Below, piece by piece: positions 4,940 to 40,572 of a DNA stretch of 64,000 nt. The notes under the pieces are model-generated. The model was not told the origin of the DNA. It saw nothing but the letters and a program-made list of their open reading frames with translations, and searched no databases. The stretch lies in NCBI GenBank assembly GCA_000092065.1, contig CP000590.1; one strand, 5' to 3'. How positions within the stretch are numbered: the first letter of the stretch is position 1; each line of letters begins with the position of its first letter. The translations under genes were made by a program, and so were the position numbers. Origin of the DNA: Ostreococcus lucimarinus (lineage: Eukaryota).

Positions 4940-6802
4940 ATGCTCGGTTTAGACACCTACGGCTCGTCCGATTCCGACGACGAGAACGACGCGCTCGCGA
5001 ACGTCGCGTCCGTCAAGCGCCCGATCGCGTCCGCGCCGCCCGTCGACGCCGGCGCGTTGGCGCTCGAGCGCGCGCTCGACGGCGATGGCGGCTCGACGGG
5101 AATGCGCGTCGTTCCGCTCGCGTCCACGCGCACGGTCGTCGGTGCGCGCGACGCGCGAACGCGATGGCATCGATCGATCGCTCGACGCGCGCGCGTCGCG
5201 CGAGGAACGCGCGTGGACGATGGACTGACGGAGATTCGTTCGACGCGCGCAGACCCGACGACGCGAGAGATGCGCGTGAACCTGACGTACGACGAGATGA
5301 CGGCCCCGATCGAGGGACCGAGGCACGAGACGCGAGAGGATAGACTCACGGGGCGAGGGGCGAGGAATCACGCGCTCGGGCAGGTGGACGCGACGACGGT
5401 GAACGCGTTTAGTTTCGACGAACAGTACAATACGTACAATTCGCGGGGGTACGCGGCGGCGCCGTCGGGGACTGGGGTCGTCGGTGACGCCGACGCGATG
5501 CGAGCGAGCAAGGGGGAGACGGCGTTTAATATTTCTGCGGCGAAAAAACGAAGGATTCGCGAGGAAGTGCTCGCGGGGGTGGCGACGCCGGCGAGCGGCG
5601 AGACGGATACGTCGGCGTGGGCGCCGGCTCGAGCGGCGCAAAAGGTGCTCGTGCACGATGATTTGTCGGAGAAGGAGAAGGAGTACGTGAAATGGCACAT
5701 GGATAATCGCGAGGCAAAGCTTCGGGCGAAAGGAAAGTTGGAAGGTTTGGAGACGGGTCCGGGCGAGGACGGCGGCGCTCAAGACGACTCAAAGTTTACA
5801 AAGTTTCACGGCTCGGAGGAAGTCAACTACGCGGGGGATTCTTGGATTGCGGCGCCAAAGAGCGAGAAGCGCGATGGAGATGGAACTTGCTTCGCGCCGA
5901 ACAAGTGCGTGCACACGTTTAACGGTCACACGAAGGGTGTGTCAAAGATTGAATTTTTCCCTCACACCGGTCACCTGTTGCTCTCGGCGGGCATGGACAA
6001 CGTGGTCAAGATTTGGGACGTGTACAACAGTCGAAAGTGCATGCGCACGTACATGGGACACGACAAGGCGGTAAAAGACGTGTGCTTCAACGGCGATGGC
6101 ACGCGCTTCGTGTCGACGTCGTGGGATAAAAAGGTTCGATTGTGGGACACGGAGACTGGCAAAATAATCCAAACCGTGACGAGCGGGAAAATCGGTTACT
6201 GCGCGAAGATTCATCCAAAGCAAGACAACTTGGTGTTGATCGGGCAGAGCGATAAAAAAATCGTGCAGTGGGACATGAACAACGGGGACTTGGTGCAAGA
6301 GTACGACCAGCATCTCGGGCCGGTGAACTCGATCACTTTCGCCGACGGCGGCGAACGCTTCATGTCCTCTTCGGACGACAAAACGCTTCGAGTTTGGGAG
6401 TTTGGAATCCCGGTGACGACTAAATACATCGCTGACCCGTCGATGCACTCCGTGCCCGCGACTGCGATATCGAACAACGGCAAGTACATCATCGGTCAAT
6501 CGCTCGACAATCAAATTATCACCTTTAGCGTCGACGAACGCTTTCGAAGAAACAACAAGAAACGCTTTGGTGGTCACCACAACGCCGGTTACGCGTGCCA
6601 GCCCGCGTTTTCTACCGATGACAGCACCGTCGTTAGCGGCGACGGGTCTGGTAAGATCTTCTTCTGGGATTGGAAGACGTCCAAAATCATCAAATCCGTC
6701 AAGGCGCACGCCGAGGTGTGCATCGGCGTCGCTTGGCACCCGCTCAAGAGCTCCGTCGTCGCGTCGTGCAGTTGGGACAAGACGATCAAGCTGTGGAAGT
6801 AG
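4940..6802 (+). CDS. PRP17: pre-mRNA-processing factor 17 (PRP17/CDC40), WD40 protein
   Basis: The N-terminus MLGLDTYGSSDSDDEN is typical of PRP17. The C-terminal half has 7 WD40 repeats (GHTKGVSKIEFFPHTGHLLLSAGMDNVVKIWDV, GHDKAVKDVCFNGDGTRFVSTSWDKKVRLWD and others). Single uninterrupted ORF. Confidence 0.9.
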   Translation: MLGLDTYGSSDSDDENDALANVASVKRPIASAPPVDAGALALERALDGDGGSTGMRVVPLASTRTVVGARDARTRWHRSIARRARVARGTRVDDGLTEIRSTRADPTTREMRVNLTYDEMTAPIEGPRHETREDRLTGRGARNHALGQVDATTVNAFSFDEQYNTYNSRGYAAAPSGTGVVGDADAMRASKGETAFNISAAKKRRIREEVLAGVATPASGETDTSAWAPARAAQKVLVHDDLSEKEKEYVKWHMDNREAKLRAKGKLEGLETGPGEDGGAQDDSKFTKFHGSEEVNYAGDSWIAAPKSEKRDGDGTCFAPNKCVHTFNGHTKGVSKIEFFPHTGHLLLSAGMDNVVKIWDVYNSRKCMRTYMGHDKAVKDVCFNGDGTRFVSTSWDKKVRLWDTETGKIIQTVTSGKIGYCAKIHPKQDNLVLIGQSDKKIVQWDMNNGDLVQEYDQHLGPVNSITFADGGERFMSSSDDKTLRVWEFGIPVTTKYIADPSMHSVPATAISNNGKYIIGQSLDNQIITFSVDERFRRNNKKRFGGHHNAGYACQPAFSTDDSTVVSGDGSGKIFFWDWKTSKIIKSVKAHAEVCIGVAWHPLKSSVVASCSWDKTIKLWK

Positions 6803-30929: not shown

Positions 30930-32606
30930 TCAGAATATTTGCGCGTTTCCTTGGCGAAGATTTTCGTTATCGTCTCGTTCGTAAGCGACCACGTAGCACT
31001 CGCGTTCGAATTCTTGAAGCGAGTTGAAAATGAGCTCATCGCGCGCCACGTAGGAAGTCACGCGCTCGTCGTCGTAAGTCTTCCACGCCTTCGATTTGCG
31101 CTCGCGGATGTGCGCGACGAAGTGCCCGAGCTCAACCGTGTTCCCGTGGTGCGAGATGACGGCGAGCAAGTCGAACGGTCTCGTAGCCGCCACCGATCGC
31201 GTGTTGTGACGCTTCACACCCGGGGTATCGGGCGAACTTTTGGACGCGTTGTTAGCGTGTTCGAGATCCGAATCGTCTCCAGACGATTTGGGGACGACGA
31301 TTTCGGCGGCGGCGGATCCAGCGTGCATCAGCGACATCTTTGAAGGAAGACGAATCGAAGCCGTGAGCTTTTGCAAACGCAACACACCGCGCGCTATCAC
31401 CGCATTGAATCGCTTGAGGTGCAAGAGGAGGAATTTCGGCTCTGAGACGATTTGTCGAGTCGAGATTGCGAACAAGCATCCACACGAACACTTGCGTTCG
31501 AGCTTTTCTGGAATGAAGTACCGATCGAGCAGCGCGTCGACAGACTCGTTCTCGTCGATGATGAGCTGCAACGTCAGCATGTACATCGATTCGTCCATCA
31601 CGCTCCTTTCGCCGCAGCTGACGCACGATAGCGCGTGCTCGATGCGCCACGCGAAGTTTTGTCGACTCGGACAGTGCGCCGCGTCGTCACCCATTTCGCG
31701 CTCGATCGTGTCCAACATTTGCGTCATGAATTCCATTGCGTCGTGTTGATCGAACTCTCCGTACTCGTCCCGCACGCGACCCATTTCGCGCTTCACGCCC
31801 GACGCGCTCAACTCGCTCGCGTCCGATCTGAAAAACTCGCCGAGCGCGGCGAGTAACGGTTTACCGTCCTCGTCTCCAGACACCTCGTGAACCGACTCCA
31901 CGAATCCACGCATGCTTCGCAACAACTGCAAAGACGCGGCGATGTAGCACGAATTCCCTAAATTTTCAATCCCGCCCGTCTCGCGCGCCGGTCGCCGTCG
32001 CTCGCTCCGCGCCGTCTCGCGCTCCCACGCCGACATGTGCTTCCCCTCGCTCGCCACCCCTCGCCACATCTGCGCGTCGAACCCCTCGCATCGAGTCCTT
32101 TTCTTTCTCTCGTACGTCACGACGTCGTGATTCACGCGCGCCGCGCCGCGCGTGAACGATCGATCCCGGTCGCCGCCGTATCCGCGCGCTCGCGCCGCCT
32201 CGGTCGTCTCGGACCAATCGAGCGCGTTCGCCCGCCCCCACGCCTCCGTCGCGTCGCGCCGCATCGCCTCGTCGCGCCGGTACGCGTCGTCGATCGCGTC
32301 GTCCGCGATCGCGTCGTCCGCGAACGCGAACCACGCGCTGAGATCGCGCGCGTCGCTCGGCGACGCGTCGTCGAACAATCGTCGATTGGTGTCCTCGGAC
32401 GCGACGACGGGCGTCTTCAGCGGCAACGCGCCGCGGTTCGCGCGCGGTTCGCGCGGCGCGCGCGCGGCGCGCGCGCGTCTCGATTTCGCGCCGCCGTAGC
32501 CGCGGCCGCGGCCGCCGCCGCGCGCGCGCGCGTCGTCGTCGTCGTCGGTGACTCGCATCGAGTCGTCGCGAAGTGACTTCAGTCGGCGGCGCGCGGCGCG
32601 CGGCAT
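30930..32606 (-). CDS. ubiquitin carboxyl-terminal hydrolase (USP/UBP family C19 peptidase)
   Basis: Cys box GIENLGNSCYIAASLQLL. His box ISHHGNTVELGHFVAHIRERKSKAWKTYDDERV. A zinc-ribbon CSCG...CGC lies between them. The true start may be an internal Met, since the first ATG overlaps the PIG-C start on the other strand. Confidence 0.85.
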   Translation of the reverse strand: MPRAARRRLKSLRDDSMRVTDDDDDARARGGGRGRGYGGAKSRRARAARAPREPRANRGALPLKTPVVASEDTNRRLFDDASPSDARDLSAWFAFADDAIADDAIDDAYRRDEAMRRDATEAWGRANALDWSETTEAARARGYGGDRDRSFTRGAARVNHDVVTYERKKRTRCEGFDAQMWRGVASEGKHMSAWERETARSERRRPARETGGIENLGNSCYIAASLQLLRSMRGFVESVHEVSGDEDGKPLLAALGEFFRSDASELSASGVKREMGRVRDEYGEFDQHDAMEFMTQMLDTIEREMGDDAAHCPSRQNFAWRIEHALSCVSCGERSVMDESMYMLTLQLIIDENESVDALLDRYFIPEKLERKCSCGCLFAISTRQIVSEPKFLLLHLKRFNAVIARGVLRLQKLTASIRLPSKMSLMHAGSAAAEIVVPKSSGDDSDLEHANNASKSSPDTPGVKRHNTRSVAATRPFDLLAVISHHGNTVELGHFVAHIRERKSKAWKTYDDERVTSYVARDELIFNSLQEFERECYVVAYERDDNENLRQGNAQIF

Positions 32607-33844: not shown

Positions 33845-36800
33845 ATGAGCGTTCACGATCGGTTCCCGCACTCGACCGCGGAGCTGTGCCGCGTAAACGC
33901 GGTGCAGTTTGGGGTGTTGTCGCCCGATGAGATCGTACGTGCATCGAACGCGCGCGCGCGCGAAGCGAAGGCGCGAAAGAGCGCCGGCGCGGGAGATCTT
34001 CGAGAGGGCGAGGCGGCGAGGGCGAACGCGCGACGCGGGCGACGAAGGCGAGCGAGCGCGCACTGACCGAACGTGAAACTTTCGCGCGATAGCGTAAAAT
34101 GTCCGTGTGCGCGATCGAGACGAGCGAGACGTACGAGAAGGGTAGACCCAAGCGAGGGGGTTTGTCCGATCCGCGCATGGGGACGATGGATCGCGGCGCG
34201 GTGTGCGAGACGGACGGGTGCGACAGCGTGCAGACGCCGGGTTACTTTGGGCATCTTGAGTTGGCGAAACCGGTGTACCATCATGGGTTCATCAACGTCG
34301 TGTTGAGAATTCTGAGATGCGTCGGATACTCGTCTTCGCAATTGTTGCTGCACAAGGACGAGGACCCAAAGTTTGCGCAGTTGATGCGAATCAAGAACCC
34401 GAAAAACCGATTGAAGAAACTCACCGACGCGTGTAAAACCAAGAGCGTGTGTCCGTACACCGGGACGGCGCAACCGCAGTATCGTTTGGAGGGAATGAAG
34501 ATCACCGCCGAGTTCAAGCACCGCGACGAGGAGCTGTTGCCGGAAGGTGGCGAACGCAAGGTGATCGTCACCGCGGAGCGCGCGTTACAGATCTTGAAGG
34601 CGATTTCTGACGAGGATTGCCGTGCGCTGGGTCTCGACCCCGAGCACGCGCGTCCGGATTGGTTCATCTTGCAAGTGATGCCCGTGCCGCCGCCGCCGGT
34701 TCGTCCGTCGGTGTCGTTCGACGCTTCCACGCGCTCGGAGGACGATTTGACGGTCAAGCTCATGGAAATCGTGAGAACGAATAAAAATTTAGAGAGACAA
34801 GAACAAAATGGAGCGCCGCAGCACGTCATTTTAGAATTTACAGAGCTGCTTCAGTATCACATCATGACCTTCATGGACAACACGGTGGCTGGCATGCCGC
34901 GAGCGCTCACGCGCAGCGGCCGAAGCATTAAATCCATTTCAGAGCGTTTGAAGGGCAAGGCGGGTAGAATTCGAGGCAACTTGATGGGTAAGCGCGTGGA
35001 TTTCTCTGCGCGTACCGTCATTACGCCCGATCCAAACTTGATGCTCGACGAGCTCGGAGTTCCGTGGTCCATCGCGTTGAACATGACGTATCCGGAAACC
35101 GTGACGCCGTACAACATCGATCGCCTTCAACGATTGGTCGAGAACGGCCCGCATCCACCTCCTGGTGAGACCGGTGCGCGTTACATCATTCGTGAGGATG
35201 GTCAGCGACTCGATCTTCGCTTCTTGAAGAAGTCGAGCGAGAAGCGTCTCGAGTACGGTTACAAAGTTGAACGTCACATGGTGAACGGAGACGTCGTCCT
35301 GTTCAATCGTCAACCTTCTTTGCACAAGATGTCCATCATGGGTCATCGCGTCCGAATCATGCCTTACTCGACGTTCAGATTGAACTTGTCTGTCACGCCG
35401 CCATACAACGCTGATTTTGATGGGGATGAAATGAACATGCACCTTCCGCAGTCTTACGAGACACGCGCGGAGGTGAAGGAGTTGATGATGGTACCGAAAA
35501 TGATCGTATCGCCCCAGGCCAACAAGCCCGTGATGGCTATCGTGCAAGACACCTTGTTGGGTTGCCGCTTGATCACGAAGCGCGACACCTTCATCACAAA
35601 GGACGTCTTCATGAACATCATCATGTGGTTGGAGGATTGGGACGGGAAGGTGCCGAAGCCGGCTATCCTCAAACCCCAACCTTTGTGGACTGGTAAACAA
35701 GTGTTTTCGATGATGTTACCGAAGGTGAACTTGCTTCGCACGAGTGCGTGGGCCAAGGACTCCGACGACATGGCTTTCAGCGTGGACGACACCGGTGTCC
35801 GAATTGAACAAGGCGAATTGCTCACCGGGACGCTGTGCAAGAAGACTATGGGTAGCGGCGGTGGCGGTTTGATCCACGTGACCTGGGAAGAGTGGGGTCC
35901 CATCGCCGCACGCGGGCTCATCTCTCAGACGCAGACGCTCGTCAACTACTGGGTGCTCCACCACGGTTTCACCGTCGGCATTGCGGATACCATTGCGGAC
36001 GACGAGACAATGTTCTCCATTAACAACACCATCACCAAGGCTAAAGCTGACGTGAAGGAAGTCATCAAACTCGCACAAAACAATGAACTCGAGTTGCAAC
36101 CGGGTATGACGATGCAACAATCGTTCGAACAGAAGGTGAACCAAATCTTGAACAAGGCGCGTGATAACGCTGGTAACTCGGCGCAAAACTCGCTTATGGA
36201 TACCAACAATGTCAAGATGATGGTGACGGCCGGTTCGAAGGGTTCGTTCTTGAACATTTCGCAGATGATTGCGTGTGTAGGACAACAAAACGTAGAAGGA
36301 AAACGTATTCCGTACGGTTTCAAAGGCAGAACATTGCCGCACTTTAGCAAGGATGATTTCGGTCCCGAGTCGCGTGGTTTCGTCGAGAACTCGTATTTGC
36401 GTGGTTTGACTCCTCAGGAGTTCTTTTTCCACGCCATGGGTGGCCGAGAAGGTTTGATCGATACTGCAGTTAAGACGTCTGAAACTGGTTACATCCAACG
36501 TCGTCTTGTCAAGGCTATGGAGGACGTGGTTGTCAAGTACGACGGCACTGTGCGTAACAGCGTCGGCGACGTCATCCAGTTCTTGTACGGCGAGGACGGC
36601 ATGGACGCGACCATGATTGAAAGCCAATCCATCGATACGTTGCGTTTCAGCGTGAAGGAGTTCGCGGCGAAGTTCCACATCGATCCAGATGTCCCGGGCT
36701 TTAACAATGGCTGGTTGAGCGAGGAGCAAGCGAGCGAACTCGCGCACACTGCAAAGGTGCGCGAGATTCTTGACGCAGAATGGGATCGACTTCAGCGCGA

Positions 36801-38943
36801 CCGAGTCGAACTGCGAACGATTTGTCCCACAGGGGATCCTCACGTGCACTTACCAGTGAACATGAAGCGTATCTTGTGGAATGCACAAAAGCAGTACGGC
36901 CTGTACCGACCGGATTCTGGCGAAGAAGAGGTCAAGGTGACGCACATCATCGAGAGCGTCGCTGAACTTTTGCCGAAGCTCATCGTGGTGCCTGGTACAG
37001 ATCCGTTATCCGTCGAAGCGCAAAGAAACGGTACGATGCTATTTTTCGCGCACGTGCGCGCCAATTTGGCAGCCAAGCGCGTGCTGAAAGAACACAAGCT
37101 CACGCGCGCCGGCTTCGACTGGGTCATCGGCGAAATCGAATCACGCTTCAAGATGGCACTTGCGCCGCCCGGTGATGGTATTGGCACGGTTGCCGCGCAA
37201 TCAATCGGTGAGCCGGCGACGCAGATGACGTTGAATACGTTCCACTTCGCCGGTGTGTCCGCCAAGAACGTGACCCTTGGTGTGCCGCGCTTGAAAGAAA
37301 TCATCAACATCGCGAAGAGCATCAAGACGCCAAGCTTGACGATCGCACTCAAGCCAGAGTTAGCTGGTGACAGAACGAGAGCGAAGGACTGTCAAGCGAG
37401 CCTAGAGTACACCACGCTCCACAGCGTTGCCGCAGTCACCGAGGTTCACTACGATCCAGATCCCACGGACACTGTCATCGAGGAAGACCGCGAATTCGTT
37501 CGCGCGTACTACGAAATGCCAGACGAAGACGTTGACCCGTCGCGCATGTCCCCATGGTTGTTGCGTATCGAGCTTAACCGTGAGATGATGGTAGACAAGA
37601 AGCTCCTCATGGCGGATGTTGCGGAGAGAATCAACGAAGATTTCGCCGGCGACTTGAGCTGCATCTTCAACGACGACAACTCTGAAAAGTTGGTGTTGAG
37701 AATTAGAATCATGAACCCCGAAGGCGTGAAATACGAGGACGCCTCGACCGAGGACGAAGTATTCTTGAAGCGTCTCGAGACGCAGATGTTGAGCAACCTT
37801 GCATTGCGCGGTATTCCAGACATTAAGAAGGTTTTCATCCGCGAAGCCAAACAAAACGCCATCAACAGCAAGACGGAGCTCTTCGAGAAAACCACCGAGT
37901 GGATGTTGGACACCGAAGGCGTCAACTTGCTCGAAGTCATGGCACATCCGGACGTCGACTTCACGAGAACTACATCTAACCACTTGATTGAAGTGATTCA
38001 AGTTCTTGGCATCGAAGCGGTGCGCAATACGCTCTTGCGTGAGTTGCGTGGTGTGATTGAGTTCGACGGTTCGTACGTGAACTACAGACATCTCGCGATT
38101 CTCGTCGAAGTGATGACATACCGTGGTCACTTGATGTCGATTACGCGACACGGCATCAACCGCGTGGAGACCGGTCCGCTCATGCGCTGCAGCTTCGAAG
38201 AAACTGTCGACATTCTCATGGAGGCGTCGGCGTTCTCTGAGCGAGACAATATGACTGGGCCGAGCGAGAATATCATGCTCGGGCAGTTCTGTCCGATCGG
38301 TACCGGGGAGTTCAAGCTGCACTTGAACGACGAGTTGTTACAAGATGCAGTTGAGTTAGAACTGTTCGGGGATGGATCTAGGACCCCTGGACACGGCGGA
38401 ATGATGACGCCGGGGCGCGATGGAACGCCCGGTTGGGGATCAAAGTCGCCGAGTTTCTTGTTGAGTCCAGGTGGACATCAAAGTCCGTTCGATACAAGCA
38501 TGGCATTCTCGCCGTACTCCGATGGCATGGCGTTCTCACCGGGAATGTCCCCTGGTGGTTTTGGAGGTTACTCCCCCACGAGTCCAGCGTATTCTCCGAC
38601 GAGCCCAGCATACTCCCCCACGAGTCCGGCGTACTCGCCCACGAGCCCAGCGTACTCGCCCACGAGTCCAGCGTACTCGCCCACGAGCCCGGCTTACTCG
38701 CCCACGAGTCCAGCGTACTCCCCCACGAGTCCAGCGTACTCCCCCACGAGTCCGGCGTACTCGCCCACGAGCCCAGCGTACTCGCCCACGAGTCCAGCGT
38801 ACTCGCCCACGAGCCCGGCTTACTCGCCCACGAGTCCAGCGTACTCCCCCACGAGTCCAGCGTACTCCCCCACGAGTCCGGCGTACTCGCCCACGAGCCC
38901 AGCGTACTCCCCGAAAGAGGAAGAAGAAAACGAAGAAGAATAG
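33845..38943 (+). CDS. RPB1: DNA-directed RNA polymerase II largest subunit RPB1, 2 exons: 33845..33934, 34093..38943; CTD of 16 perfect YSPTSPA heptads
   Basis: Exon 1 encodes ...VNAVQFGVLSPDEI. Exon 2 continues RKMSVCAIETSE..., which restores the conserved VQFGxLSPDEIRxMSV. All RPB1 regions A-H are recognisable (NADFDGDEMN metal-binding site and others). The C-terminus holds tandem YSPTSPA repeats ending YSPKEEEENEEE. Confidence 0.93.
33935..34092 (+). other. RPB1 intron (158 nt, phase 0)
   Basis: Donor GTACGTG, branch-like GCACTGACC 30 nt before the acceptor GATAG. Confidence 0.85.
38569..38904 (+). repeat. RPB1 CTD heptad array: 16 x 21-bp units encoding YSPTSPA, containing a perfect 126-bp (6-heptad) tandem duplication (38632..38757 = 38758..38883)
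   Basis: Unit-by-unit reading shows synonymous variation between neighbouring heptads. The 6-unit block is repeated identically, and a 7th identical unit starts a third copy. Confidence 0.9.
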
Positions 38944-39048
38944 AGGAAAGGAGACAACTGTTTGTTTTAATGCATCACTGCACAGTTACGTTGCACAAGA
39001 TTTTGTTTACAACAACTTTCGGCGCCGCGCTCGATTATAATAAACTGT

Positions 39049-40572
39049 TCACAGTTTTGACTGTGGGCGCGTCATTTCTTCAGGCTTTATCCATTCATCG
39101 AACTGTTCGTTCGTCAGTAAACCGAGCGCGATGCCAGCTTCGCGTAAAGTTAAACCTTCGGCGTGTGCTTTTTTCGAAATTTTTGCGGCGTTGTCGTACC
39201 CGATCTTCGGCAGCAAGCTGGTGACGAGCATTAAGCTGCTTCGCATGAGCGCGTCGATGCGCTCGATGTTTGGTTCGATACCAACGACGCAGTTTTGCGT
39301 GAAGCTGATGACCGAATCAGAAAGGAGCGCGATGGAGTTCAGGTTGTTGTGAGCGATCAGAGGCTTAGCTACGTTGAGCTCAAAGTGGGAGCTCGCGGAA
39401 CCGCCGATGGTGACCGCGAGATCGTTACCGATGACTTGCGCGCACACCTGCATCAGACTTTCGCACTGCGTCGGGTTCACCTTACCAGGCATGATACTGC
39501 TTCCGGGCTCGTTTTCAGGCAGCTGAAGTTCGCCGAGTCCGGCGCGAGGTCCAGAGCCGAGAAGACGAATATCGTTGGCAATTTTCAACAACGAAATCGC
39601 GATAGTCTTCAACAGACCGGACAGCGCGGACTGCGCGTCGTGTGCGGCGAGCGCCTCAAACTTATTTGGCGCGCTCACGAACGGCAAACCGGTTAATAGG
39701 GAGATTTCCGCCGCCATCGCCTCGCCGAAACCTGGTGGCGAGTTTAGCCCCGTGCCGACGGCGGTGCCGCCGATGGCGAGCTCGAGCAAGTGAATGAGCG
39801 CACCTTTGGCGCGCACGAGAGAATTCTTGCACTGTTGCTCGTACCCACTGAATTCTTGCGCGAGCGTGATCGGGACGGCGTCTTGAAGATGCGTTCTGCC
39901 GATTTTCACTATGCCTCCCCACGCGAGCACTTTCTGGTGCAACGCCTCCTGCAGCATTTTCAACGCCGGAATCAGCCGCTCTTGCACTTCGTGCGCGGTG
40001 GCGATGGACATAGCGGTCGGAAACGTATCGTTACTCGACTGCGATTTGTTGACGTGATCGTTCGGGTGAATCGGAGACTTGGTCCCGACGGCGCCGCCGA
40101 GCACGCGCGAATTCGCGTAATTCGAGATGACCTCGTTCAGATTCATGTTCGTCTGCGTCCCACTTCCCGTTTGCCACACGGCGAGCGGAAAATGATCATC
40201 CAACCGTCCCTCCACCACCTCCCGCGCCGCCTTTCGAATCGCATCCGCCAATCTCGGCTCCAGTCCCCCCGCCCGTTCGTTCACCGTCGCCGCCGCGTAC
40301 TTGACGATGGCCAAGCTTCGCACGATCGCCACCGGCATCTTCTCCCCCCCGATCCTAAAATTCTGCAGCGACCGCTGCGTCTGCGCCCCCCACAGCTTAT
40401 CCGCGGGCACGCGCACCTCTCCCATCGTGTCCGTCTCGACGCGCCACCCGCGCTCGCCCTCACCGCTCGCCGTCGTCGTCGGCGCGAGCGACGTCCCGTG
40501 CGCGACGATCCGCGTCTCGTCCCGCGCGTTCGACGCCCGCATCAGCTCCACCAACCGCTCCGCGAACGGCAT
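39049..40572 (-). CDS. FUM: fumarate hydratase class II (fumarase C), mitochondrial-type presequence
   Basis: [15 protein letters not shown] signature. Conserved along the whole length ([30 protein letters not shown] and others). Confidence 0.93.

What the first reader, a model, noticed from the sequence alone, without database searches (positions are those of the whole stretch)
38569..38943. RPB1 CTD made of 16 perfect YSPTSPA heptads with a 126-bp tandem duplication
Every heptad has Ala at position 7 instead of the canonical Ser7. The array is completely uniform at protein level but shows synonymous variation between neighbours at DNA level, which indicates purifying selection. A 6-heptad block (38632-38757) is duplicated base-for-base (38758-38883), and a third copy begins after it. 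This implies recent unequal crossing-over, or slippage, or a collapsed/expanded assembly. A uniform A7 removes the Ser7-phosphorylation mark used elsewhere for snRNA gene expression.
Basis: seen in the sequence. Interest (0 to 1): 0.55.

Follow-up and report, generated by a model that had tools for sequence, protein, structure and literature searches.

The report
Ostreococcus RNA polymerase II tail repeats
This is the ordinary repeated tail of the main RNA polymerase II subunit of the tiny green alga Ostreococcus lucimarinus; its alanine-for-serine repeat is shared by all its close relatives, and the exact 126-base duplicate is a rearrangement seen only in this reference sequence and does not change the repeat number.

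Summary
Window 38569-38904 holds 16 units of 21 bp, and all encode YSPTSPA. A perfect period-126 stretch runs 38611-38909. The gene is RPB1 of Ostreococcus lucimarinus CCE9901: the spliced product equals XP_001419944.1.

Ala7 is not special to this genome. Every Mamiellophyceae-like relative recovered, and Picocystis, has pure or near-pure YSPTSPA arrays with no Ser7. Ser7 is common only in streptophytes. The same heptad is already described for stramenopiles.

Purifying selection is well supported. 26 different 21-bp units in this species and a 93%-identical Ostreococcus-like relative all encode YSPTSPA.

The 126-bp duplicate is private to this sequence. Eight environmental assemblies of near-identical sequence, seven of them encoding the same ORF, also have 16 heptads. 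Their first ten units match the window, but units 11-16 read differently (13 differences in 126 bp against about 3 in 7.5 kb elsewhere). The window's last six heptads were therefore overwritten by a copy of heptads 5-10, either by gene conversion or by contraction followed by re-expansion. The number stayed at 16, as described for yeast CTD arrays. An assembly artefact is unlikely but not excluded.

Interest is low.

The parts
33845..33934 (+). RPB1 exon 1 (MSVHDRFPHSTAELCRVNAVQFGVLSPDEI), missed by the longest-ORF reading
   Evidence: joining 33845-33934 to 34093-38943 gives a 1646-aa product identical to P0143 (XP_001419944.1, O. lucimarinus CCE9901).
33935..34092 (+). Intron of 158 nt, GT...AG, G+C-rich
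   Evidence: GTACGT donor, GATAG acceptor. Removing it restores the conserved N-terminus seen in P0004 and in plant RPB1.
34093..38943 (+). RPB1 exon 2, including the stop codon. It holds Rpb1 domains 1-7, the linker and the CTD.
   Evidence: Pfam RNA_pol_Rpb1_1 to _7 and Rpb1_R all above their cut-offs; best solved-structure matches are Pol II RPB1 (1900-2170 bits), against Pol III at about 795 and Pol I at about 500.
38176..38568 (+). Linker between the polymerase core and the repeat array. It carries degenerate SP motifs (SPSFLLSP, FSPYSDGMAFSPGMSPGGFGG).
   Evidence: translation. The end of Pfam domain 5 at ORF residue 1359 sets the left boundary.
38569..38904 (+). CTD heptad array: 16 x 21 bp, all YSPTSPA. 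The order of unit types is abcdefeacdefeacd.
38611..38909 (+). Perfect period-126 stretch (2.37 copies). 38611-38783 is identical to 38737-38909.
   Evidence: 173-nt exact self-match at shift 126, and 0 of 20000 shuffles of unit order reach 168 nt.
38779..38904 (+). Units 11-16 (efeacd), the derived block. In eight near-identical environmental assemblies this block reads geeffg (one reads ggeffg). Against geeffg there are 13 differences, between 38799 and 38904.
   Evidence: 13 of 126 differences here against about 3 of 7509 in the rest of the locus (Fisher p = 2e-21). L020 also ends in geeffg, and the 3%-divergent haplotypes L002-L004 end in a similar pattern, gehekg. The window's state is therefore the derived one.
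38905..38943 (+). Partial 17th heptad (YSP), acidic tip KEEEENEEE and stop codon
   Evidence: Acidic tips also end the relatives' CTDs.

Best explanation

The CTD is a disordered tail of 16 YSPTSPA heptads. By analogy with other eukaryotes it is phosphorylated on Ser2 and Ser5, and possibly Tyr1 and Thr4, to recruit capping, elongation and 3'-end factors. That function is inferred, not shown here.

Position 7 is alanine in every heptad. This is the state of the whole lineage (Mamiellophyceae, Picocystis), not a local change, so these algae run the transcription cycle without a Ser7 phosphate mark.

The peptide sequence is held by strong purifying selection. The underlying 21-bp units differ only at synonymous sites.

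The DNA array behaves as a coding minisatellite. Misaligned recombination between units shuffles, deletes and copies blocks, while selection keeps the heptad number near a species-typical value of 16.

In the sequence of this window, units 11-16 have been replaced by an exact copy of units 5-10. There are two possible routes. One is a single out-of-register gene conversion. The other is loss of the last six units followed by a 126-bp tandem duplication. Either produces the perfect 126-bp repeat without changing the total count.
For: Identity of the gene:
- Pfam finds Rpb1 domains 1-7 and the CTD repeat.
- Solved Pol II RPB1 chains are by far the best matches.
- The spliced product is identical to XP_001419944.1 of O. 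lucimarinus CCE9901.

Ala7 is lineage-wide:
- Relatives at 71-93% identity, including the Micromonas pusilla cluster and the Picocystis salinarum cluster, have 14-24 heptads. Of these, 67-100% are A7 and none is S7.
- Streptophytes have 32-69% S7.

Selection on the peptide:
- 26 distinct 21-bp units from the window, environmental haplotypes and a 93%-identical Ostreococcus-like relative all encode YSPTSPA.
- Variation is confined to positions 3, 6, 9, 13-15 (an AGY/TCG serine codon switch), 18 and 21. All four Ala codons are used.
- Only 17 of 63 possible single-base changes in a unit are synonymous.

Block replacement:
- Eight independent assemblies have 16 units reading abcdefeacdgeeffg, or ggeffg at the end in one. 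They are L001 and L008-L014, and L008-L014 encode exactly the window's ORF. They come from MEGAHIT, SPAdes, Tara and JGI.
- They differ from the window at 1-11 positions in about 6 kb upstream of the array and 0-3 positions in 1.5 kb downstream, but at 13 positions in the 126 bp of units 11-16.
- L020 also ends in geeffg, and the 3%-divergent L002-L004 end in a similar pattern, gehekg.
- L007 carries the window-specific junction of unit d with the tail, on an environmental SNP background. That junction therefore exists outside the reference.

Precedent: 36 S. cerevisiae isolates show many CTD-DNA rearrangements while the repeat number stays at 24-26. Contractions there join sites of microhomology (PMC4882425).
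Against: - No independent assembly shows the full 16-unit array with the perfect duplicate.
- Two exact-match scans of JGI metagenome contigs for the window-type end found nothing. No positive control was possible for these scans.
- L007 has only 10 units. It could be a true 10-unit allele and not a collapsed 16-unit one.
- One-step conversion cannot be separated from the two-step route of contraction plus expansion.
- Phosphorylation and factor binding were not tested. They cannot be tested from sequence.
- The public reference DNA could not be fetched. The assignment of the window to the CCE9901 assembly therefore rests on protein identity, and both array types encode that same protein.
Confidence: 0.8

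Rival explanations
1. The perfect 126-bp duplicate is an error of the reference assembly. On this view the real strain carries the common array abcdefeacdgeeffg, or a 10-unit array.
For: None of the eight near-identical 16-unit environmental assemblies has it. L019 has zero mismatches to the window in the 5970 nt upstream of the array, yet it carries the environmental-type end. JGI metagenome scans found no window-type end.
Against: An assembler error would have to swap six units for six others and leave the length unchanged, which is not a usual failure mode. The whole array is only 336 bp. Reads of Sanger length would span it; that the published genome was Sanger-sequenced is my own recollection and was not checked. 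The window-specific junction of unit d with the tail is present in an unrelated sediment metagenome contig, L007, and cannot be derived from the environmental type by collapse. Short-read assemblies cannot be expected to resolve a 173-nt exact repeat, so their silence is weak evidence.
Confidence: 0.15
2. The duplicate is a net expansion. A 10-heptad ancestor abcdefeacd gained six heptads by unequal crossing-over or slippage, and the match with the common count of 16 is a coincidence.
For: L007 shows a 10-unit array, abcdefeacd plus the tail, on an environmental SNP background. The structure of 2.37 perfect copies is what a simple tandem duplication of 126 bp would give.
Against: L007 comes from a k=127 assembly, which must collapse a 173-nt exact repeat, so its 10 units may be an artefact. 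The first ten units are identical to those of the 16-unit common allele. The geeffg end is shared by L020, and a similar end is seen in the divergent L002-L004. A 10-unit form would therefore itself be derived by loss of geeffg. Return to exactly 16 is more easily explained by conversion or by selection on length. This rival overlaps with the two-step version of the best explanation.
Confidence: 0.25
3. Uniform Ala7 is a specific adaptation of this species. It would have switched off Ser7-dependent snRNA gene expression, perhaps in connection with genome streamlining.
For: Ser7 is required for RPAP2 and Integrator recruitment to human snRNA genes (PMC3262128). All 16 heptads here lack it.
Against: The trait is shared by all Mamiellophyceae-like relatives and by Picocystis. 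Ser7 is also absent or rare in the larger-genome chlorophytes Micractinium and Haematococcus. It occurs independently in stramenopiles (PMC3646058, PMC11062530), where CDK7 still binds the YSPTSPA CTD and phosphorylates Ser5. It is therefore old and not tied to this species.
Confidence: 0.03

Closest known systems
Canonical RNA polymerase II RPB1 CTD (YSPTSPS heptads: yeast 26, Arabidopsis 34, human 52)
   Same: The position is the same: at the C-terminus after Rpb1 domains 1-7 and a linker. The array is tandem 7-residue units with Y1, S2, P3, T4, S5 and P6 invariant, followed by an acidic tip. The gene is a full-length Pol II RPB1 orthologue.
   Different: Position 7 is Ala in all 16 heptads, so no Ser7 phosphorylation is possible. 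The array is short (16) and completely uniform, without the degenerate distal repeats of plants and animals.
[quoted passage not shown]
   Same: The heptad is the same and the array is just as regular (PMC3646058, PMC11062530). In Phytophthora, CDK7 binds the CTD and phosphorylates Ser5, which shows that such a CTD is functional.
   Different: The lineage is different: green algae, Mamiellophyceae. P. capsici keeps one canonical YSPTSPS as its last heptad, whereas this CTD has none. Whether the shared Ala7 is convergent or ancestral was not tested.
Instability of the CTD coding minisatellite with length homeostasis in Saccharomyces cerevisiae (Morrill et al. 2016, PMC4882425; PMC7341143)
   Same: Degenerate 21-bp units vary only synonymously. 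Strains differ by block rearrangements while the repeat number stays nearly constant: 24-26 in yeast, and 16 in three O. lucimarinus haplotype groups. The deletion forms join short exact repeats. The coding strand is C-rich, with 154 of 336 bases C.
   Different: No genetics was done here. Dependence on Rad52, Pif1 or Rad5 is unknown. The environmental 8- and 10-unit forms may be assembler collapses and not alleles.

Membership tests
RNA polymerase II largest subunit (RPB1) with heptad CTD | Full set of Rpb1 core domains 1-7 | tested here: met
   PF04997, PF00623, PF04983, PF05000, PF04998, PF04992 and PF04990 all match at E <= 4e-40 and above their curated cut-offs.
RNA polymerase II largest subunit (RPB1) with heptad CTD | Closer to Pol II RPB1 than to the Pol I or Pol III largest subunits | tested here: met
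   Pol II RPB1 chains score 1900-2170 bits, Pol III RPC1 about 795 and Pol I RPA1 about 500; best named hits are plant and algal RPB1.
RNA polymerase II largest subunit (RPB1) with heptad CTD | Tandem C-terminal heptads of type Y-S-P-T-S-P-x | tested here: met
   (PF05001, 89 bits): 16 perfect YSPTSPA units.
RNA polymerase II largest subunit (RPB1) with heptad CTD | Canonical Ser at position 7 in most heptads | tested here: not met
   0 of 16. This residue is the most variable of the heptad across eukaryotes and is not required for membership. Relatives also lack it.
RNA polymerase II largest subunit (RPB1) with heptad CTD | Cycle of Ser2 and Ser5 phosphorylation during transcription | not testable with these tools
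   Needs phospho-specific antibodies or mass spectrometry. Ser2 and Ser5 are present in every heptad.
YSPTSPA-type CTD (described for stramenopiles) | Regular array in which Ala replaces Ser7 throughout | tested here: met
   compared with PMC3646058 and PMC11062530.
YSPTSPA-type CTD (described for stramenopiles) | Common descent with the stramenopile arrays | not tested
   The organism is a green alga. No stramenopile RPB1 was retrieved or compared, so convergence versus ancestry is open.
Unstable CTD coding minisatellite with length homeostasis (yeast model) | Block rearrangements between strains while the repeat number stays constant | tested here: met
   the window reads abcdefeacdefeacd, the common environmental allele abcdefeacdgeeffg, and the divergent clade ehijjehigigehekg. 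All have 16 units.
Unstable CTD coding minisatellite with length homeostasis (yeast model) | True length polymorphism from contraction and expansion | tested here: inconclusive
   Assemblies with 8, 10 and 14 units exist. The 8- and 10-unit forms are exactly what collapse over 62-nt or 173-nt exact repeats would produce.
Unstable CTD coding minisatellite with length homeostasis (yeast model) | Dependence on recombination and G4-helicase factors (Rad52, Pif1, Rad5) | not testable with these tools
   Requires genetics. Only the C-rich coding strand was seen.

The most novel reading that the evidence does not exclude
Ser7 is missing from the Pol II CTD across a whole branch of green algae: Mamiellophyceae, Picocystis and much of the core Chlorophyta. 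These organisms would then express snRNAs and terminate short transcripts without the Ser7P-RPAP2-Integrator route used in animals. At the same time, heptad number would be actively held at a species-specific set point (16 in O. lucimarinus) by a balance of contraction, re-expansion and conversion. The window's private 126-bp duplicate would be a caught-in-the-act example of that balance.
Probability: 0.4. Interest if true: 0.4.

Novelty: new member of a known kind. Interest (0 to 1): 0.22.

Why it matters
The practical value is limited.

- The finding documents that the all-alanine position-7 CTD, so far described in the open literature I could search only for stramenopiles, is also the rule in the smallest green algae. 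Ostreococcus would therefore be a natural 'S7A' system for asking what Ser7 phosphorylation is needed for. My own knowledge, not checked here: O. tauri can be engineered by homologous recombination.
- It gives a natural example, outside yeast, of CTD-coding DNA being rearranged while the heptad number is conserved.
- It also carries a technical warning. Heptad counts taken from short-read metagenome assemblies (8, 10, 14 and 16 for essentially one protein) are not reliable.

Tried and rejected
- I looked up the annotated 1646-aa protein (P0143) to fetch the public reference DNA and confirm the source of the window at nucleotide level. It is not on record, so the assignment rests on exact protein identity.
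- I scanned JGI metagenome contigs for a 192-nt pattern that only a window-type array with more than 1.5 copies of the 126-bp period can hold. I then scanned for the 61-nt window-type 'c-d-tail' junction. Both gave 0 hits.
- I tried to read Yang & Stiller 2014 (PNAS), the main survey of CTD diversity, by DOI and by a remembered PMC id. It is not held. I therefore cannot say whether the Mamiellophyceae Ala7 arrays are already described there.
- A first literature query failed on a term-length limit.
- The Rfam and tRNA scans of the whole window found nothing, so no snRNA gene is available here to examine for a 3' box.
- I rejected a stramenopile origin of the window, which the first literature hits suggested. 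The best protein hits are Viridiplantae, and the 90% cluster contains O. lucimarinus.
- I rejected point mutation as the source of the difference between the window and the common allele: 13 of 126 against about 3 of 7509, p = 2e-21.
- I did not search for RPAP2/Rtr1 or Integrator subunits in Ostreococcus. I had no verified query sequences, and the window does not contain these genes.

Full report
**The observation**

Window 38569-38904 consists of 16 head-to-tail units of 21 bp. They lie in the frame of the long ORF 34099-38943 (+), and every one translates to YSPTSPA. The array is followed by YSPKEEEENEEE and a stop codon. Tandem Repeats Finder reports the same array, with period 21 and 16.2 copies.

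The block 38632-38757 is identical to 38758-38883. The perfect identity at period 126 actually extends over 38611-38909: 38611-38783 equals 38737-38909, giving 2.37 copies. The six DNA unit types in the window differ only at third codon positions.

The duplication is not a chance product of low unit diversity. The longest exact self-match is 173 nt. None of 20000 shuffles of the unit order reaches 168 nt, and the median is 56.

**What the gene is**

The ORF carries Pfam Rpb1 domains 1 to 7 and the CTD repeat. It matches solved Pol II RPB1 chains at 1900-2170 bits, against about 795 bits for Pol III and about 500 for Pol I.

The ORF lacks the conserved N-terminus. That lies in an upstream exon (33845-33934), separated by a 158-nt GT..AG intron (33935-34092). 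The spliced 1646-aa product is identical to XP_001419944.1 of Ostreococcus lucimarinus CCE9901, which sits in the same 90% protein cluster.

The G+C content of the window is 62.5%. The flanking genes are a GPI2-family gene upstream and a convergent fumarase gene downstream, and the same neighbours appear in the environmental contigs.

**Ala7 is a trait of the lineage**

Among the relatives recovered:
- The 93%-identical Ostreococcus-like proteins have 17 and 19 heptads, all YSPTSPA.
- Proteins at 71-82% identity have 14-22 heptads, of which 67-100% are A7 and none S7. One of these clusters contains Micromonas pusilla CCMP1545.
- The cluster containing Picocystis salinarum has 23-24 heptads, all A7.
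- Core chlorophytes have little or no S7: Micractinium 0%, Haematococcus 3%, Coccomyxa 9%, Elliptochloris 32%.
- Streptophytes, from Mesostigma to rice, have 32-69% S7.

The heptad YSPTSPA is already described as the regular repeat of stramenopiles (PMC3646058). It has also been studied in Phytophthora capsici, where CDK7 binds the CTD and phosphorylates Ser5 (PMC11062530).

In human cells Ser7 is needed to recruit RPAP2 and Integrator to snRNA genes, but not for RPAP2 recruitment to a protein-coding gene (PMC3262128). S7A budding-yeast strains are grown and used experimentally (PMC12270679).

It describes an old, widespread and tolerated state, not a feature of this locus.

**Purifying selection**

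I compared the window, the environmental haplotypes and a 93%-identical Ostreococcus-like relative. Between them they hold 26 different 21-bp units, and all encode YSPTSPA. Nucleotide variation is confined to unit positions 3, 6, 9, 13-15, 18 and 21. All four alanine codons are used. Ser5 switches between AGY and TCG codons. Only 17 of the 63 possible single-base changes in a unit are synonymous.

**The 126-bp duplicate**

Writing each distinct unit as a letter, the window reads abcdefeacdefeacd.

Seven independent environmental assemblies encode exactly the window's 1614-aa ORF (L008-L014). They come from MEGAHIT k127 and k141, SPAdes, Tara scaffolds and a 584-kb JGI contig. An eighth near-identical assembly is L001. 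All eight have 16 units and read abcdefeacdgeeffg, except one that ends in ggeffg.

These assemblies differ from the window at 1-11 positions in about 6 kb upstream of the array and 0-3 positions in 1.5 kb downstream. In the 126 bp of units 11-16 (38779-38904) they differ at 13 positions (Fisher p = 2e-21). A 14-unit haplotype (L020) also ends in geeffg. A clade about 3% divergent (L002-L004, 16 units) ends in the similar pattern gehekg.

The geeffg end is therefore ancestral, and the window's efeacd is derived. It is an exact copy of units 5-10 laid over the last six units.

The count stays at 16, so the net event is a replacement and not an expansion. I see two possible routes and cannot separate them:
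- One out-of-register gene conversion.
- Loss of the last six units, followed by a 126-bp tandem duplication. The junction would share the 5-nt microhomology TACTC.

This matches what is described for S. cerevisiae. There, 36 isolates show many rearrangements of CTD DNA while the repeat number stays at 24-26, and contractions join sites of microhomology (PMC4882425). The coding strand here is C-rich, as in yeast (154 of 336 bases C).

**Real event or assembly artefact**

No other assembly contains the full window-type array, and two scans of JGI metagenome contigs for the window-type end found nothing.

Against an artefact, contig L007 comes from an unrelated sediment metagenome and carries environmental-type SNPs. 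It reads abcdefeacd followed directly by the tail. This is the window-specific junction, and it cannot be obtained from the common allele by collapse. L007 was assembled at k=127. Its 10 units are exactly what collapse of a 173-nt exact repeat would give.

The array is only 336 bp long. By my recollection the published genome was Sanger-sequenced, though I did not check this. Reads of that length would span the whole array.

I put the probability of an assembly error at about 15%.

The other short forms equal the common allele minus the stretch between two 62-nt exact repeats: abcdgeeffg with 10 units and abcdeffg with 8 units. They may be true deletion alleles or assembler collapses. This cannot be decided here. 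Heptad counts from short-read assemblies should not be trusted.

**Verdict**

This is a correctly observed but ordinary feature: the RPB1 CTD of a published genome.
- The Ala7 heptad is characteristic of the lineage and is a known heptad type.
- The synonymous-only variation shows the expected strong constraint.
- The perfect duplicate is a private, recent rearrangement of a known kind that leaves the heptad number unchanged.

There are two modest new points. In every Mamiellophyceae-like and Picocystis RPB1 recovered here the CTD has no Ser7. The only six open-access or bioRxiv papers that contain 'YSPTSPA' do not mention green algae, and the main survey could not be read. Second, O. lucimarinus populations show array shuffling at a constant length of 16.

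Interest is low (0.22). Novelty: new member of a known kind.

Noticed in passing
window 33845-34098: The longest ORF (34099-38943) misses the real start of RPB1. A 90-nt first exon and a 158-nt G+C-rich intron lie upstream. Gene callers on metagenome contigs make the same mistake: all environmental products start at MSVCAIET or later.
   Followed up: yes
window 33845-38943, compared with 30930-32606 and 39049-40572: The RPB1 coding sequence has lower G+C (55.2%, GC3 69%) than the window average (62.5%). Neighbouring ORFs have 59.5-62.9% G+C and GC3 of 74-78%. The 36-40 kb bin is the G+C minimum of the window (54.7%).
   Followed up: partly
window 38943-39049: RPB1 and the convergent fumarase gene (ORF 39049-40572, minus strand; Lyase_1 and FumaraseC_C in the environmental contigs) have stop codons only 105 bp apart. 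Their 3' ends must nearly abut or overlap.
   Followed up: no
L005-L007 and L015-L020 (array at locus position 5971 onward): Metagenome assemblies of essentially the same gene give 8, 10, 14 or 16 heptads. The 8- and 10-unit forms correspond to removal of the stretch between 62-nt or 173-nt exact repeats. They are either assembler collapses or true contraction alleles.
   Followed up: partly
L019 and L007 compared with the window: The state of the array is uncoupled from the flanking SNPs. L019 has no mismatch to the window in the 5970 nt upstream of the array but carries the common-type array end. L007 has the environmental SNPs but the window-type end. This suggests recurrent rearrangement, or recombination between haplotypes.
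   Followed up: partly
L021-L025 (arrays of the 93%-identical Ostreococcus-like relative): Some units encode Ser5 with TCG instead of AGY (units u and w). This codon-family switch needs two or more base changes, yet the peptide is unchanged. These arrays share only unit m with O. lucimarinus, so the DNA has turned over almost completely under a fixed peptide.
   Followed up: partly
window 38569-38904: The coding strand of the array is 46% C (154 of 336 bases). The template strand therefore carries GGG to GGGGG runs in every unit. A similar strand bias was linked to G-quadruplex-like structure and instability in the yeast CTD (PMC4882425).
   Followed up: no
window 1-64000: No tRNA gene and no Rfam family above its gathering score anywhere in the 64 kb.
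   Followed up: yes
P0010 and P0011: Two relatives' predicted proteins read the heptad DNA out of frame (arginine-rich or 'GVFAH'-type tails). These are probably frameshift or assembly errors inside their CTD arrays, another sign that the region is hard to assemble.
   Followed up: no
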